This document shows positions 6,001 to 15,000 of a stretch of 64,000 nucleotides of DNA, piece after piece. Source of the DNA: Styela clava (taxonomy: Eukaryota); NCBI RefSeq assembly GCF_964204865.1, contig NC_135257.1:9982001-10046000 (forward strand), in the 5' to 3' direction. Made by a program: the position numbers. The number at the start of each line of letters is the position of its first letter. The first letter of the stretch is position 1.

Positions 6001-9000
6001 CTTTTGCTGTCAACAAAGCTAGGAACAATCGTCCACTTCTAGGTAAAAGCTAATTTAATCTGAATGGTCCGGAATTTTCTCAGATCTGCATTGCCTGCCT
6101 AATTTATTATTCCAATATGGGCGAGCGGTCGGGCATGGGATTTGAAACCCACCTTATAGCCTGCGCTTTCGACGTTAAGTAAAGAAGAGCTTCAATCACT
6201 TCGCAGTCTAATGTTAAGGTGCAATTCGATGAACTCTGATAGTAAAAAACTAGGAAGTTACCCGTTGATATCCCAAAGTCCACGATAGGCAGTACTGATT
6301 GATTCAAATTTTACAAACATGAAATTAGTTGTGGTCAAATAGGAAAGGAATATCATTACATGGGTTTGTCTCTTTAGATTCTGAACTACTTTAAACTTCA
6401 AATAGGATAGAATATTTTACCTAGATATGGCAGTAAAATCACCATTAGACTTATCTCATATAATCCAGGTTTTCTACACGAGTTATGGATAATAAAGTGT
6501 CCTTATGTTTGTTGTTTATCAACACCTTGCCGTTTGATGTGCGTAACACTAGGGGCTAGGAGGGCATAACCACATCGCTTGATCTTAATCAAACAGCGAA
6601 TAATGCTAATCGTTCTTAACAGTCTATTTATTGTAGAAGGCATGTATACGAGAATTTTTGGAGCCGCCGAAGTATGTGCACCAAGATGGCGCACAATCTG
6701 AACATAGTATGTGTACCAGGTTAGGGTTCAGGTTGTACACCATCTTGGTGCACATACTTCTTGAGCGCCGAATTTTTTATCAAAATTATATTTTCTCCGA
6801 GAAGAAGTCGGGTCGAATTTTTTTACAAACCAGAGTCAAGTCAAAATTCTTCTTTAACCCGGAGTCTAAGGTAACTATTTTCCGACCGACTATACTTCCG
6901 ACTAATATGAAATCGATACTGATATTTTTGATTCGTCGTATTAGAATTCTTCTAACCTCGGGTATTTTGAACATATTATCTATTTTTTGCCATTTTTATT
7001 AGAATGAAAGTGAAATTTGACCCGTAAAAGCAGGTTGCGGCCGCGGCTCATTTCCGCCACAAATTCTATTGGATTGGCAGTATTTTTCGGGAAATTCAAA
7101 CGACGAGATCATGTCATTTGCCTTGATTAGGTTGTCTGGATCTCGTCCATACGTTTGGTGTAAATTTTTCCCTCTTTAGGAACATAACGTGAACACGTGG
7201 TAGTTAAGCACAGGAAACAGTGTCAGTGAAATTACGAAAATATGCAGTATATACCCGCACATTCAAAAAGATCTGTAGTGAGTGTCGATATTCGGAGATA
7301 GAACGTTCACTTTTATTTCTGTGAATTTTTATACAGTGATGAGAAGTGATCTAGATGTATAGGAATAAATTACTTCATACTTTCGATAAAAGTTTCATTT
7401 TGTTGTAGTAACCGTGGCAAATAGGTTGAAAAATAGTAACAGAGTCGTATGATGAGCATCGGAAAATGTGTTTTGTTGACAATTTCAATTTTGACATTCT
7501 TTCAACTGAAAATAGCTATTTCAACGCCACCACAAGAAAACTACGATGAATGGGCCATAGAAGTTACAAAGGGGATCGAGAACAAAAAGGAAGTTGTAAA
7601 CACTATAGCGAAGAAACTAGGCCTTGAATTGGTTCGGTCGGTAAGTCATGATCTATAACGCATGTTCTAAACAACCTTTATAAATGGTAAATTTAAAGAT
7701 AATTTTAAATAGTCAGATCATAGTGGCACGTTACCTCTTTTCAAATGGGTAATTCAGGCGACAATTCGTGTCAATATACTCTCCTACCGGCCCCCTTTTT
7801 ACTCAACTGTGTATAAATTCAAGCAAAACATTTCTCACCGATCTAACATTGCTTGAATATTTTGTCTTAAAGTGCGTTTTGAATTTTCTAATATTCATAC
7901 AGCATATTATGTTTTTTAGTTAGTATATATGCTTCATAAAATAGCATGGACAACAAAATTTTAGGCGAAGAAATGAGCCACTTACAAAGTGGCTGAGGAA
8001 TATCTGCAGCTAGTCACATAAATTGTTAAATAATATATATTATCAATACAAACATTTATTTATGATTTCAATCAATTACAAACTATAATGCATATCATCT
8101 GATAATGTTAAAACAGATATCGGATGAGCACATGCCAGAGTTCTTTCATTTACGCGCGGAAAAAGACCTATTAAATCAGGATGCAGTAACTGAGCTTTTA
8201 TTCGATGAACCAGAGGTGAGAAACATTGAATAGTCATGAATCTGCCCAGACTATGTCAACAGTATTGGCAATCACGACAACTAGTGCTATTTATAGAAAC
8301 CTACTCACTCTTATGAACTATACTCAGCATGATCTTCACAAAATCCGTTCACAAAATTACAAAAAATAGCATAGAACTCAAATATTACTAAACTCAATTT
8401 GTGATATATATAGGGTTTATTGTTTGTGAGGATATGCTCGCAGCAAAATTACGCTCGGTCATTTAAGAGAAAAACGAACGAGCGACAACTGAAATGTCAT
8501 CATATATTTTAACAAGTGAAAATAATTTGAAATCAAATTTTCCGTATGCATAGGACGATATTCAGGAAAATATTTTAATATTTTACCTAAAGGCACTATA
8601 TATATATATATTTGTATCCATTTCAGATTGTGTATGCCGAATTTCAAGTTCAACATGAAGTAGAAACTAAAAAGATCGATGATTTGAAAGATTTTCTGAA
8701 CATGAAAAATAAAAAATCGTACTATCATTCCTCAAAATGTCAATGTCACAAAAACTCTCCCGACCAAGATCACGCGTACGTCCAATTTTCACTTGAATTT
8801 ATTCTTTATATAAAATCTTCTTTCTTTTTAATAAAACGTCCGCGGTTAATTAAACCTTTTCAGATGTAAAATATTAGATGTATTATTGAATGTAGTTATA
8901 TAGCGCGCAAATGGGCTATTCTGAATCCTGTGTGAAAAATTCGCCGCAGAAAATTTCGCCGCATAGAAGAATCGCCGTACGAAAAATCGCCGCAAGAGCA

Positions 9001-12000: not shown

Positions 12001-15000
12001 GTTGAAAAACGTTTAAGTACGCACCCACCCTCCAAAATTATATTGCAAGCTCACAAAACAGTGAACCCGATTCAAAATCGGGCAGTACTTTTAAAGCAAT
12101 TCAAAATGAGAAAACACGTAATAATCAAATATAGGAACATCAGGAAATAATAACAAATGAACTATATCACAGTCATTTGACGCATATCAATTAGTTTCCG
12201 GAAAGTGATATGCAAAAAGCACTAGCGCAACAAATACAATAATAGCATTACAATTACAGTGTCAGTCATCGAAATAATGGAATTTGAAATTCAGCGAATA
12301 AGAGCGTTCATAACTTGAATAAACTCAATTGTAAACAAGAAAATCCAGGAAAAGTCATCTGCAATCGCTTTTAAGGCTCGTTTCTCAAAATAAGAACTGA
12401 GCAAATGTTGACGACGCAATCCGACGTTGTCATTTTAAATAAATCCGAAGTTGTCATTTTAAATAGTTTCGAAATTAACCATTCCAAATGCATCCGAAGT
12501 TACAGTACCAAATGGGTCCGAAGTTAACGTTCAACATGATCCGAAGTTACCATTCCAAATGTGCCCCAAGTTATCGTTCAAAATGATCCGCATCCCGCAT
12601 AGTGTATGTATAGTATACTATACTAGACAAAGTAGGCCGAATTGTTAACTAACCCATACCTAAACAAACAGCGAATATTGCGAAAGAATTTTCTAGAACA
12701 CAAACTAATGTCCATGAATAAATCGGTGAACAATTCTTACATATGCAGTTAATGGTTCTTCAACTTTAGATTAGATTTATGCTATGGCCGCTTCTATTTA
12801 TGTTTCAGGAATTCATGGGGCCCGTCGGACAATGGGCACTTGTTCCGCAAACCACCAAGGCTTACAGCTACATCTCTGCAGCGTGGAGCAGAACACGTAA
12901 AATATTTCGTTTATATAATGATACTGTGGTTGAAAAAACACTTCAAGTTTGGATTGAAATTCCATTTAAGTTGTGAATTGATACTTTGTGTGGATGTATT
13001 ATACTGGCAACAATCTTACAGTGTGATTCAATCAAATTCAGAAACTATGTCTCTGGATTTCCGTCTGATAAATATCAGATGCCGTAGTAAATGGTTTTGA
13101 ATAGTCTAAAACTTTTTGTGCAATATTTTTTTCAGGGGAGAAATGGAAAAGGAAATATTTATTTATTTGCTTCCGGCAACGGTGGATTAAGAAACGATCA
13201 TTGTGGGGCTGATGGCTTTTCTTGCAATATTTATACAATTTCTATCGGTAAGTTATGATTTATTGCTTGAACGAGACAAAATGACGCCCGCACCTGGCCA
13301 TTTTTTCATTATTAACGATCGGTCTATGAATCCATGCTGCGATGAATTGGTATCTAATACTCTCAGTATACATCATCAGAGAGATTTCTCCCTCTGATTT
13401 ACATTTTATATAAGCTGTCCTAAAAGTGAGGGATTTATTTTCAAAACTGCGATATAAAACGTTTTTTTCCACCTCATTGAAACTAAGTATAATATTTAAA
13501 TTCGAAACGACTTTAATTTTGCCCACAACCGAATGCGAAGCGAAAGTAAATAAACCCTATAATATATCATTATTCCAAAATGAAAATAATACACCCCGAA
13601 AACGTAATATAACTTTTAAATTTTCACTAATATTATTAAGGAGATTTCGACAACACCATTTGGGATTTTTCAAGACAAATAAAATCATTTTTCATCATCT
13701 TAGTGTTTTGTATATTTTTCAGCCTCTAGCTCCCGGAATGGTTTGAATGCTATTTATAGTGAACAATGCACATGTATTATGGCAACACTTCCTTCTACTG
13801 ACACACACTCCAATCCATTTGATTATGATATGATGGTATGATGGGATTTATATACAACGATTCTTATTTTTTGTAACTTGATGCCCAATAACTCTTTGGC
13901 ACCAACTTATAGATCAGTTCAAACTGCATAATACTTTGATTAGATATTTTAATATAGTATGCTGCTTGGCAAATCGGAACCAGAAATTTATTTGCAAAAT
14001 AGAGCCCTACTTTCTCAATGACGTTGCCATTGATCGTAATTTAGTCAAAGTCCTGATTTGTATCCAAACAAAGATCGATTTGCTCTATCATCGGCATGCA
14101 ATCTTGCAGAGACAAAAACAGTATGCATTAACTGCGCCTGCGTAGCCAAAGCACTGCATTAAGATCTAACTTTGCAACTAGATTTCCAAAACGGTCTGAA
14201 GCCGTTAATATTTTTTTTCTTAGTTTGTTATCCACTAATTGAATCAAGCTCGCTTATAGATTACGACGAGTCTGCACAACGGGTGTGTAAATAACTTCCG
14301 AGGCACTTCTTCTGTCACTCCTCTTGCTTCATCAGTTGCTACAATGGTACTTCAGGCGAAGTAAGTGGAAGAAATGTGTGTGCATGCATCTGACGAAATG
14401 TCGTTAATTTGTCTTTCATCTTATGTTTCATTCACAGCCCTGCCTTGACATGGAGAGATGTTCAGCATTTGATAGCTCACACTGCATTAGTTGTTGATCC
14501 TAACAATGACAACTGGCAAATTAATGGAGCCGGCTTTCATGTCCATACCTAGTGAGTATTTTTTATTTTTGTTGTTCCCGAATTGACCACGGAGAACTTT
14601 CCGCTAGCACCACAGTCAAGGAAGTAAAAACATAATGGTAGACATTCCCACAATGTTGTATTGTTATTTGCTTTAGTTACGGATTTGGTGCGCTGAATGC
14701 CCTTCACATAACAACAGCCGCCGAAACATGGATCAATGTCGACAGACAGAGGTTGTGCAAACTTCAACATCCGAAATCTCACAGGTAGTCTAATCCAAAA
14801 AAATTCAGCTAAGCTTAGATCAAACAAGTACTTATTCAGAAAATTTTTTAATACTCTTGCCCTCATATATAGCAACCAAAATTGACTTTATGCTTTATAG
14901 TAATCCAAATTAGATTTGAAAAAAGAAAACAACACAACTATATTTATGCAACGCAACATACGACGTCATGTCATTGATGAGATTTCAATTATCAAATTTT

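What the first reader, a model, noticed from the sequence alone, without database searches (positions are those of the whole stretch)
8627..13247. Convertase with apparently charge-reversed S4-S6 pockets and a matching acidic pro-domain junction
Seen: where furin-type pro-domains end EQQVAKRRTKR, this protein reads EFQVQHEVETKK, with no R-X-K/R-R. By manual alignment to furin (numbering from memory), the S1/S2 acids are kept (DDG, D-K-P-H, WGPSD, GADG, YSE). Distal residues differ: DDGKTVDGP becomes DNGHLFRKP (D264 to R), DGEVTD becomes GHKSTD (E230 to K), E257 becomes S and Y308 becomes F. Inference: cleavage after TKK would put Glu at P4 and P6, opposite the new basic residues. This suggests enzyme and pro-peptide co-evolved toward an E-X-E-X-K-K-like specificity, unlike known multibasic convertases.
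Basis: partly seen in the sequence, partly recalled or inferred. Interest (0 to 1): 0.75.

Follow-up and report, generated by a model that had tools for sequence, protein, structure and literature searches.

The report
Sea-squirt convertase with altered distal pockets
This is an intact sea-squirt gene for a furin-like processing protease whose pro-peptide junction and outer substrate pockets lack the usual basic/acidic pattern, but much of that oddity is shared by the little-studied protein lineage it belongs to.

Summary
Window 8627-13247 is exons 3-10 of an intact 21-exon gene (7449-18102, + strand). It encodes a kexin-like proprotein convertase of the sea squirt Styela clava and is identical to NCBI's model 'PC3-like endoprotease variant B'. 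Tool alignment to furin shows the S1/S2 acids are kept. Furin's E230, E257, D264 and Y308 read K, S, R and F. The pro-domain ends HEVETKK, with no R-X-K/R-R.

- None of 126 aligned sequences has an acid at 230 or 257.
- Sharks share the HEVE junction yet keep D264.
- A starfish relative has R264 with His at P4.
- An ungapped alignment gives a second register (ETK|K).
- D233 and E236 remain, so the pockets are neutralised rather than reversed.
- A second site, KNKK, ends 14 residues downstream and aligns with RNKR in the Styela paralog.

Most likely this is an active, dibasic-directed convertase that needs no basic P4/P6. It is the faster-evolving copy of a tunicate duplicate pair. True selection for acidic P4/P6 remains possible (about 0.2). 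New variant of a known kind; moderate interest. The joined-exon search and fold were left out.

The parts
7449..18102 (+). Whole convertase gene: 21 exons, 838 codons plus stop (NCBI XP_039271912.2, Styela clava)
7449..7640 (+). Exon 1: signal peptide and start of pro-domain
   Evidence: Weak S8_pro-domain match, E=0.2. The only strongly hydrophobic stretch of the protein is at residues 2-26.
8117..8215 (+). Exon 2: middle of pro-domain. It lacks the internal multibasic loop that most relatives have.
8627..8775 (+). Exon 3: last pro-domain strand, junction and spacer
8654..8674 (+). HEVETKK: aligned pro-domain junction. Inferred primary cleavage is after KK, or after the first K.
8705..8716 (+). 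KNKK: second basic site. It aligns with RNKR of the Styela paralog and is followed by a shared C-x-C.
9609..9708 (+). Exon 4: end of the linker (IP..VF..MN motif shared with fish relatives) and start of the catalytic domain (FNDFRWPCQW)
10173..10319 (+). Exon 5: catalytic Asp (D215 at 10275) and the S2 Asp (D216)
10809..10879 (+). Exon 6: holds D251 (furin 191, S2)
10980..11068 (+). Exon 7: catalytic His (H254 at 10981)
11379..11463 (+). Exon 8: furin 227-236 loop reads IGHKSTDVRE (11390-11419). K290 = furin 230; D293 = 233 and E296 = 236 are kept.
12809..12896 (+). Exon 9: furin 254-267 reads WGPSDNGHLFRKPP (12816-12857). S317 = 257, D318 = 258, R324 = 264, K325 = 265.
13136..13247 (+). Exon 10: oxyanion Asn (N355 at 13178), D361 = 301, D366 = 306, F368 = 308
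13723..13835 (+). This is the first exon of the triplicated 3' block.
14260..14360 (+). Exon 12: catalytic Ser (S432 at 14308); F428 = furin 364
14438..16528 (+). Exons 13-18: end of the catalytic domain and the P (Homo-B) domain
   Evidence: (exon 17 matches P_proprotein at 29.3 bits, cut-off 21)
16735..18102 (+). Exons 19-21: C-terminal tail with no Pfam match and no membrane-spanning stretch
13507..38290 (.). Three tandem units (13507-21713, 21714-30102, 30103-38290) about 97% alike. Each holds part of intron 10, exons 11-21 and about 3.6 kb downstream.

Best explanation
The region is the pro-domain end and most of the catalytic domain of an intact, probably active, soluble kexin-like proprotein convertase of Styela clava.

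Lineage. It belongs to a little-studied convertase lineage that NCBI auto-names 'PC3-like endoprotease variant B'. Members were listed from fishes, echinoderms, hemichordates, molluscs and cnidarians. This may be the 'PCSKX' group of a 2019 preprint. Within that lineage it is the faster-evolving copy of a tunicate duplicate pair.

Shown:
- The catalytic triad, the oxyanion Asn, three acids that furin uses in a calcium site, and the S1/S2 acids are all kept.
- The distal residues 228-231, 257, 264, 265 and 308 are changed, so the five furin acids of S4-S6 become K230, D233, E236, S257 and R264, with K265 next to them.
- The junction motif HEVE is shared with sharks.

Inferred mechanism:
1. The zymogen cuts itself at the end of the pro-domain after a Lys pair (VETKK|I), or one residue earlier (VETK|K).
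2. It needs no Arg at P4 or P6, because S4-S6 has lost its net negative charge. R264 may simply pair with E236 and close the Arg-binding S4 pocket.
3. A second cut at the conserved KNKK, by itself or by another convertase, trims a 14-residue spacer.
4. Toward other substrates it should act as a dibasic-site protease that is indifferent to, or tolerant of, acids upstream. Such acids are a lineage-wide property of these junctions, not a private invention of this gene.
For: Identity and intactness:
-.
- All 21 exons have GT-AG borders.
- An older record agrees at all key residues.

Catalytic and S1/S2 residues:
-.

Distal residues mapped to furin numbering:
- Mapped through ungapped exon-level alignments and checked against Table 1 of PMC2820236.

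Lineage-wide traits (n=126):
- 257 is R72, K34, P6, S5, Q4, T4, N1.
- 230 is never D or E.
- D233 and E236 are kept in 126 of 126.
- 364 is F in 124 of 126.
- 264 is D82, G21, A16, E4, R1, T1, S1.

Inferred junctions of relatives:
- Sharks and rays HEVEKR; Styela paralog LERERK; bony fishes HYRDKR.
- Starfish HYHEKR; sea urchin VHMKK; crinoids MLGRR.
- Hydra DRRRK; Acropora ERTRK.
- So acids at P3/P5, a non-Arg P4 and Lys at P1 all recur in the lineage.

Other points:
- KNKK aligns with RNKR and a shared C-x-C in the paralog.
- In a neighbour-joining tree, P0001 and P0008 are sisters, next to the fish clade (122 of 126 sequences, 459 columns).
- The catalytic domain of P0001 is 0.49-0.53 identical to outgroups, against 0.56-0.59 for P0008. 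The P domains are about equal.
- PC1 and PC2, which also lack the acids at 230 and 257, are described as less sensitive to basic P5/P6 (PMC2820236, whole text read).
Against: - No result here measures cleavage or shows where the mature chain starts. All junctions, including those of relatives, are inferred from alignment.
- The register is ambiguous. The dibasic KK and the kept D154/D191 favour VETKK|I, while the ungapped alignment to the shark protein favours VETK|K (E=0.064, weak).
- The R264-E236 pairing is conjecture without coordinates.
- The pro-domain is divergent. Pfam's S8_pro-domain is not among the precomputed domains of P0001, though it is for most full-length relatives. Exon 1 matches it only at E=0.2.
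- Expression was not checked.
Confidence: 0.55

Rival explanations
1. Enzyme and pro-peptide co-evolved so that R264/K265 read an acidic P4 and K230 reads an acidic P6. This would give an E-X-E-X-K-K-like specificity that actively selects for acids.
For: - Positions 230, 264 and 265 lie among the P4-P6 contact residues of furin.
- If cleavage follows KK, Glu falls at P4 and P6.
- Against the shark relatives, the changes are coherent in that register. K257 is lost where the P3 acid is lost, and R264 is gained where a P4 acid is gained.
- The paralog P0008 has E264 with P4 Arg.
- Crinoid relatives have Q236 and Q264 with an aliphatic P4. So S4 and P4 do vary together in places.
- The 228-231 loop reads GHKS here, where the 21 other sequences printed have D, or N in one skate protein, at 228.
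Against: - D233 and E236 remain, so the pockets are not basic overall.
- HEVE is shared with sharks that keep D264.
- The starfish protein has R264 with P4 His.
- Cnidarian relatives have K or R at 265 with P4 Arg.
- Sturgeon and gar relatives have A264 with P4 Arg.
- The ungapped alignment gives the other register.
- KNKK, with a basic P4, is conserved against RNKR in the paralog.
- These are single-lineage observations, so no statistics are possible.
Confidence: 0.2
2. Activation from outside. The protein cannot cut its own acidic junction efficiently. It is matured at KNKK by another, furin-type convertase of the secretory pathway, and ETKK is a relic.
For: - KNKK is a K-X-K-K site and aligns with a canonical RNKR in the paralog. 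The spacer around it is better conserved between the paralogs than the pro-domain, which is 22% identical over 67 columns.
- The internal multibasic loop of the pro-domain, present in most relatives, is missing here.
Against: - In subtilases the end of the pro-domain lies in the enzyme's own active site (established knowledge). KNKK ends 14 residues beyond that point.
- The S1/S2 acids needed to cut after KK are kept.
- Lys at P1 occurs at the inferred junctions of four other lineages.
Confidence: 0.2
3. Decaying or non-proteolytic duplicate. The fast-evolving copy is under relaxed constraint, and its odd junction and pockets are drift in a protein that no longer works as a convertase.
For: - The catalytic domain diverges faster than in the paralog.
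- The pro-domain is not recognised by Pfam in the precomputed list.
- The gene sits at the edge of a recent partial triplication.
- No other tunicate ortholog appeared among the 120 proteins listed for the paralog search.
Against: - All 21 exons are open with canonical splice sites.
- The triad, the oxyanion Asn, D258, D301, D306, E331 and D233/E236 are all kept.
- The P domain is as conserved as in the paralog.
- The linker motifs shared with fishes are kept.
- In the 3' copies the exons differ less (13 and 16 of 1368 bases) than the units as a whole (about 3%).
Confidence: 0.12

Closest known systems
Furin (solved structures 1p8j, 4omc, 6yd3, 7lcu)
   Same: - Subtilase catalytic domain followed by a P domain.
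- Exons 5 and 7 hit furin chains directly (E 4e-8 and 5e-6).
- The triad, N295, D154, D191, D258, D301, D306, E331, D233 and E236 are all kept.
   Different: - E230K, E257S, D264R, G265K, Y308F, D228G, G229H, H364F.
- The junction is HEVETKK instead of a multibasic site.
- About 50 extra residues lie between the junction and the catalytic domain.
- There is no membrane anchor.
Mammalian PC1/3 and PC2
   Same: Both lack the acids at 230 and 257 (PC1: I and N; PC2: an inserted loop and T). They are argued to be less sensitive to basic P5/P6 (PMC2820236 Table 2 and text).
   Different: - PC1 keeps an acid at 264 (D264E), and no change at 264 is listed for PC2. This protein has Arg there and Lys at 265.
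- A tarpon PC1 in my alignment has a multibasic junction, QRRKR.
Styela clava paralog XP_039273328 (P0008), also auto-named 'PC3-like endoprotease variant B'
   Same: - Sister in the neighbour-joining tree.
- 38% identical over 758 residues.
- Same long linker, with a second basic site and a C-x-C.
- Also lacks the internal multibasic loop of the pro-domain.
- F364.
   Different: - The paralog has V230, Q257, E264, G265, Y308 and the junction LERERK with Arg at P4.
- Its pro-domain is recognised by Pfam.
- It lies on another chromosome-sized contig.
Shark and ray 'PC3-like endoprotease variant B' (e.g. Cetorhinus maximus XP_078401724, P0024)
   Same: - 41% identical over 671 residues.
- Shared HEVE at the junction, a basic residue at 230 in most, no acid at 257, F364, and the linker motif IP..IF..MN before FNDP.
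   Different: Sharks keep D264, G265 and Y308, have K257, and end the junction in KR with no extra Thr.
'PCSKX' orthologous group (Tao et al., bioRxiv 10.1101/802215; abstract and section 7 read, term passages seen)
   Same: The preprint reports PCSKX in Nematostella, spiralians, sea urchin and amphioxus. The lineage found here includes cnidarians, molluscs, echinoderms and hemichordates.
   Different: - The preprint says the group was lost in vertebrates, and a figure legend places a loss in the ancestor of Olfactores. Here the lineage is present in many fishes and in Styela.
- Whether the two groups are the same could not be tested, because the preprint's sequence table is a supplement, and supplements are closed.
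Yeast kexin (solved structures 1ot5, 1r64, 2id4)
   Same: - A dibasic-directed relative with the same domain pair.
- Exons 5 and 7 hit it.
- That kexin does not need Arg at P4 is recalled, not from a call.
   Different: Weaker match than furin for both exons and for the shark relative (365 against 464 bits).

Membership tests
Kexin-like proprotein convertase (subtilase S8, kexin subfamily) | Subtilase catalytic domain with an Asp-His-Ser triad and the oxyanion-hole Asn | tested here: met
   - D215, H254, N355 and S432 align to furin D153, H194, N295 and S368.
- Peptidase_S8 is matched by 3 of 21 single exons, each just under the cut-off (18.2-20.6 bits against 21.8).
- PF00082 is in the precomputed list for the NCBI model.
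Kexin-like proprotein convertase (subtilase S8, kexin subfamily) | P (Homo-B) domain directly after the catalytic domain | tested here: met
   - Exon 17 matches P_proprotein at 29.3 bits (cut-off 21), and exon 16 at E=0.036.
- PF01483 is precomputed for the model.
- The domain aligns with the relatives' P domains.
Kexin-like proprotein convertase (subtilase S8, kexin subfamily) | Signal peptide and an S8 pro-domain ahead of the catalytic domain | tested here: inconclusive
   - There is a hydrophobic N-terminus.
- Exon 1 matches S8_pro-domain only at E=0.2.
- PF16470 is absent from the precomputed domains of P0001 but present for most full-length relatives.
- The region aligns with relatives' pro-domains at 17-32% identity.
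Kexin-like proprotein convertase (subtilase S8, kexin subfamily) | Acidic S1 and S2 pockets for basic P1 and P2 (furin D258, D306; D154, D191) | tested here: met
   All four are Asp in this protein. Pocket assignment follows Table 1 of PMC2820236.
Kexin-like proprotein convertase (subtilase S8, kexin subfamily) | Multibasic (R-X-K/R-R) autoprocessing site at the end of the pro-domain | tested here: not met
   The aligned junction reads HEVETKK. A K-X-K-K site ends 14 residues downstream.
Furin-type extended specificity (basic P4/P6) | Acidic S4-S6: E230, D233, E236, E257, D264, with Y308 | tested here: not met
   K, D, E, S, R and F at those positions, so 3 of 5 acids are replaced, two of them by basic residues. 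Residue roles follow PMC2820236.
'PC3-like endoprotease variant B' lineage (NCBI automatic name) | Groups with that lineage and shares its column signature: F at 364, no acid at 230 or 257, and the long linker with the IP..F motif in chordate members | tested here: met
   - Neighbour-joining tree.
- F364 in 124 of 126; 0 of 126 with an acid at 230 or 257.
- Linker motif.
- The signature is my own description from these calls, not a published definition.
PCSKX orthologous group (bioRxiv 10.1101/802215) | Placement inside the preprint's PCSKX clade together with its named members | not testable with these tools
   The member sequences are listed in a supplementary table, which is closed. Only the taxon distribution could be compared.

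The most novel reading that the evidence does not exclude
This would be the first kexin-like convertase whose extended pockets select for acidic residues upstream of a dibasic site. R264/K265 would read Glu at P4 and K230 would read Glu at P6, and the enzyme's own pro-peptide junction (E-V-E-T-K-K) would have shifted register to match. More broadly, the whole 'variant B'/PCSKX-like lineage, with a basic residue at 257 in 106 of the 126 aligned sequences and acids at P3/P5 of its junctions, may recognise acid-flanked dibasic sites that furin-type enzymes avoid.
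Probability: 0.2. Interest if true: 0.7.

Novelty: new variant of a known kind. Interest (0 to 1): 0.4.

Why it matters
Convertase specificity is usually explained by acidic S4-S6 pockets that read basic P4/P6 residues. Natural variants that neutralise or invert those pockets show how far the scaffold can be retuned. They would also point to substrates, namely dibasic sites flanked by acids, that standard cleavage-site predictors score as poor.

The finding also draws attention to a convertase lineage with no characterised member. It is present in fishes, echinoderms, hemichordates, molluscs, cnidarians and this tunicate, but appeared under no tetrapod name among the proteins listed. Its junctions and S4 residues vary together in several branches.

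For this single gene the practical value is modest until there is protein-level evidence.

Tried and rejected
Searches that led nowhere:
- Single-exon searches of the solved-structure set gave nothing for exons 6, 8 and 9 even at E up to 10. Only 2 of 5 exon queries hit. I therefore bridged through a shark relative and confirmed with exon-level pairwise alignments.
- Single-exon Pfam scans were weak. 15 of 21 exons matched none of the three convertase families at E up to 1.
- The word-based search with exon 5 returned only the gene's own model (1 protein among 8 candidates).
- The exhaustive search with exon 5 gave 979 proteins at E up to 0.001. Its top 150 were mostly short fragments and giant multi-domain proteins, and none carried furin numbering.
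- Literature: a search for acidic-subsite convertases returned PCSK9 papers only (listing seen). 'PC3-like endoprotease' is used in 3 papers on cnidarian venom or polar-capsule proteomes (listing seen). 'PCSKX' occurs in one relevant preprint. A search for the S. clava genome listed its genome paper, which I did not read. Within those searches I found no paper describing this protein or an acid-preferring kexin-like convertase.
- No tRNA genes and no Rfam families in the window.

Readings considered and rejected:
- Mis-splicing of exon 3. The exon 2/3 border and the strand IVYAEFQ match relatives.
- Sequencing error. The older record agrees at all key residues.
- A human or contaminant origin. 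The gene is 100% identical to a Styela clava model on a 23.8-Mb contig.

Left out:
- I did not predict a structure. That would have meant folding the joined model, and the tool returns no coordinates for measuring contacts.

Full report
**What is there.**
The window is AT-rich (about 29-40% G+C in 2-kb windows), has no N and has the short open frames of a spliced eukaryotic gene. Exon 5 (10173-10319) is 100% identical to NCBI protein XP_039271912.2, 'PC3-like endoprotease variant B [Styela clava]' (838 residues), on a 23.8-Mb contig. Styela clava is a stolidobranch ascidian, so the contig is not human.

I mapped that public model back onto the window and checked each exon separately against it. 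This gives 21 exons from 7449 to 18102 on the + strand, all with GT-AG introns, summing to 838 codons plus a stop. The finding's range, 8627-13247, is exactly exons 3 to 10.

**How the searches were done.**
Window-derived queries were sent exon by exon. I left out the joined step, meaning any search or fold with a sequence made by joining the exons. Full-length comparisons used the public NCBI model that the exon search returned. This leaves one thing open: there is no structure model of this protein, so all statements about pocket geometry rest on alignment to furin and on the published furin structure.

**Checking the observation.**
Exons 5 and 7 hit solved furin chains directly (E 4e-8 and 5e-6). 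Exons 6, 8 and 9 were too short to hit anything.

I bridged through a shark relative, P0024. It aligns to furin chain 6yd3_A at E 8e-138, without gaps from chain residue 100 to 201. Exons 8 and 9 align to P0024 without gaps. Chain number plus 107 gives furin numbering, which reproduces the residue names in Table 1 of PMC2820236 (W254 to D258, D264 to A267, A292 to N295, D301, D306, Y308).

On that footing the protein reads as follows:
- D153, D154, D191, H194
- G228, H229, K230, S231, T232, D233, E236
- W254, S257, D258, N259, R264, K265, P266, P267
- A292, N295, D301, D306, F308, E331, F364, S368

The pro-domain ends ...IVYAEFQVQHEVETKK (HEVETKK at 8654-8674), and KNKK lies at 8705-8716. An older record of the same protein differs at 9 of 838 residues, none of them among these.

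**What kind of convertase it is.**
Two searches seeded with relatives found a large set of full-length proteins. NCBI names them inconsistently: 'PC3-like endoprotease variant B', 'furin-like protease kpc-1', 'PCSK4-like', 'neuroendocrine convertase 1-like' and others.
- One search found 903 proteins at E up to 1e-30 (best 120 listed).
- One search found 1097 proteins at E up to 1e-20 (best 120 listed).
- The listed proteins come from sharks, rays, sturgeon, gar, bowfin, teleosts and hagfish, and also from crinoids, sea urchin, starfish, sea cucumber, acorn worms, gastropods and cnidarians including Hydra.
- No tetrapod name and no tunicate other than S. clava is among those listed.

A neighbour-joining tree (122 of 126 sequences with at least 85% occupancy, 459 columns) puts this protein (P0001) next to a second S. 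clava protein, P0008. P0008 is 38% identical over 758 residues. The pair sits next to the fish clade.

A 2019 preprint (10.1101/802215; abstract and section 7 read) describes a 'PCSKX' group with a similar invertebrate distribution and calls it lost in vertebrates. The lineage found here may be that group. I could not test this, because the preprint's sequence table is a closed supplement.

**Why furin is the wrong baseline.**
Column counts over 126 aligned sequences (none dropped; truncated models appear as gaps):

| Furin position | Residues in the 126 sequences |
|---|---|
| 257 | R72, K34, P6, S5, Q4, T4, N1 (never an acid) |
| 230 | never an acid; K11, R5 |
| 233 and 236 | D and E in all 126 |
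| 264 | D82, G21, A16, E4, R1, T1, S1 |
| 265 | G114, K10, R2 |
| 308 | Y115, F8 |
| 364 | F124, H2 |

The set includes three convertases from outside the lineage. Mammalian PC1 and PC2 also lack both acids at 230 and 257 (Table 2 of PMC2820236).

What is special to this protein is R264 together with K265, and the loop G228-H229-K230-S231. Among the 21 other sequences printed, position 228 is D, or N in one skate protein. R264 has one other occurrence, in the starfish Patiria.

Counting formal charges at 230, 233, 236, 257, 264 and 265 (arithmetic):

| Protein | Net charge |
|---|---|
| Furin | -5 |
| Styela paralog P0008 | -3 |
| Shark relative | -1 |
| This protein | +1 |

The pockets are neutralised rather than reversed.

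**The junction.**
The inferred junctions of relatives (by alignment only) read:
- Sharks and rays: H-E-V-E-K-R|D
- A second ray/skate paralog: R-Y-T-R|A
- Sturgeon, gar and teleosts: H-Y-R-D/E-K-R|A/V
- Hagfish: D-R-V-R-R|F
- Styela P0008: L-E-R-E-R-K|S
- Starfish: H-Y-H-E-K-R|D
- Sea cucumber: Y-H-E-R-R|E
- Sea urchin: V-H-M-K-K|G
- Crinoids: M-L-G-R-R|S
- Cnidarians: R-N-K-R|D, R-R-R-K|D, R-T-R-K|D, E-R-E-K-R|S

Acids at P3 and P5, His at P6, a non-Arg P4 and Lys at P1 are therefore all recurrent in the lineage. The H-E-V-E of this protein is the shark motif.

Two registers are possible:
- If the extra Thr is an insertion and cleavage follows KK, Glu lies at P4 and P6. It is favoured by the Lys pair and by the kept D154 and D191.
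- The ungapped exon-level alignment instead lays E-T-K on the shark's E-K-R (E 0.064). That gives VETK|K, with Glu at P3 and P5 as in sharks.

**Covariation: for and against.**

For:
- Crinoids have Q236 and Q264 with an aliphatic P4.
- Against sharks, this protein loses K257 where the P3 acid is lost and gains R264 where a P4 acid appears.

Against:
- Sharks have D264 with P4 Val.
- Sturgeon and gar have A264 with P4 Arg.
- Cnidarians have K/R265 with P4 Arg.
- The starfish has R264 with P4 His.

These are single lineages, so no statistic is meaningful. The pattern is suggestive at best.

**The second site.**
Chordate members carry 45-100 residues between the junction and the FNDP motif that opens the catalytic domain. 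Three of the six cnidarian members shown carry about ten, and the other three carry about 20 to 30.

In this protein the spacer holds KNKK. In the alignment KNKK sits on RNKR of the paralog. Similar flanks surround it (LKD-F/V-L before it; a His, then C-x-C and K-N after it). The pro-domains of the two proteins are only 22% identical, so the conservation here is notable. A basic P4 at a conserved site argues that some convertase, this one or another, still reads a classical motif here.

**Most likely mechanism (inferred).**
1. The enzyme folds with its pro-domain.
2. It cuts itself after the Lys pair, or after the first Lys, without needing Arg at P4 or P6.
3. It is trimmed at KNKK.
4. It then acts on dibasic sites with little or no demand for upstream basic residues.

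R264 may pair with E236 and shut the Arg-binding S4 pocket. That is conjecture.

The catalytic domain evolves faster than the paralog's (0.49-0.53 identity to three outgroup sets, against 0.56-0.59), while the P domains keep pace. That fits a shift in specificity after duplication, but also some relaxation of constraint.

**Novelty and score.**
The gene is already predicted in NCBI, and the family is known. The combination of R264/K265, the altered 228-231 loop and a junction with no basic residue upstream of the Lys pair appears in no paper found by my searches. I rate it a new variant of a known kind, with interest 0.4.

**Unchecked.**
- Expression.
- Orthologs in unannotated tunicate genomes.
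- The preprint's supplements.
- Any three-dimensional model.

Noticed in passing
window 13507-38290 (units 13507-21713, 21714-30102, 30103-38290): The 3' half of the gene (part of intron 10, exons 11-21 and about 3.6 kb downstream) is present three times in tandem at about 97% identity. Exons 1-10 occur once. All 11 exons are open in all copies. Copies 2 and 3 differ from copy 1 at 13 and 16 of 1368 exon bases (8 and 11 synonymous codons, 5 non-synonymous codons each). This is either a real recent triplication, which would offer alternative 3' halves, or an assembly artefact.
   Followed up: partly
window 21932-26541 and 30328-34696: NCBI annotates two separate 442-residue proteins on the same contig (XP_077971687, 'furin-like protease kpc-1', and XP_077971733, 'PC3-like endoprotease variant B'). 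Each is 98.9% identical to residues 397-838 of the full protein, and they probably correspond to the two extra copies. They start at an internal Met and lack the catalytic Asp and His, so they cannot be proteases on their own.
   Followed up: partly
related proteins P0186-P0319: The lineage this gene belongs to is widespread in cartilaginous and ray-finned fishes and in hagfish, under at least six different automatic names. No tetrapod name was among the proteins listed. If it is the 'PCSKX' group, the preprint's statement that vertebrates lost it would need revising to a later loss.
   Followed up: partly
protein P0315 (Patiria miniata) and P0302/P0303 (crinoids): A starfish member independently has Arg at furin position 264 (WGPSDNGKTMREPG), with a junction HYHEKR. 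Crinoid members have Gln at both 236 and 264, with a junction MLGRR. The S4 pocket is unusually variable in this lineage.
   Followed up: yes
window 8717-8775 (exon 3, after KNKK): A C-x-C pair (KCQCHKN) in the linker is shared with the Styela paralog (NCVCKNV) but not with the fish or cnidarian relatives shown. Its role is unknown.
   Followed up: no
window 8117-8215 (exon 2): Both Styela paralogs lack the internal multibasic loop of the pro-domain that sharks, PC1 and cnidarian relatives have (for example RKRIRKR in the shark). In furin that loop is the second activation cleavage site, as cited in PMC2820236.
   Followed up: no
window 8981-9176 and 12470-12590: Intronic minisatellites: a 52-base unit with 3.8 copies in intron 3, and a 24/47-base unit in intron 8.
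   Followed up: no
window 56393-58575 (+): Open frames with a CHY zinc finger (E 1e-12) and zinc_ribbon_6 (E 5e-27). This pairing suggests an RCHY1/Pirh2-like ubiquitin ligase gene; that name is recalled, not from a call.
   Followed up: no
window 60847-62286 (+): A single uninterrupted 480-codon frame encodes a major-facilitator-superfamily transporter (MFS_1, E 4e-29). It is apparently intronless, unlike its neighbours.
   Followed up: no
window 20180-20470 (-), repeated in the other two units: A weak match to the PLP-dependent enzyme family PALP (E 7e-4, 19.4 bits, below the cut-off of 35) on the minus strand, inside the duplicated intergenic part. It may be a gene fragment or chance.
   Followed up: no
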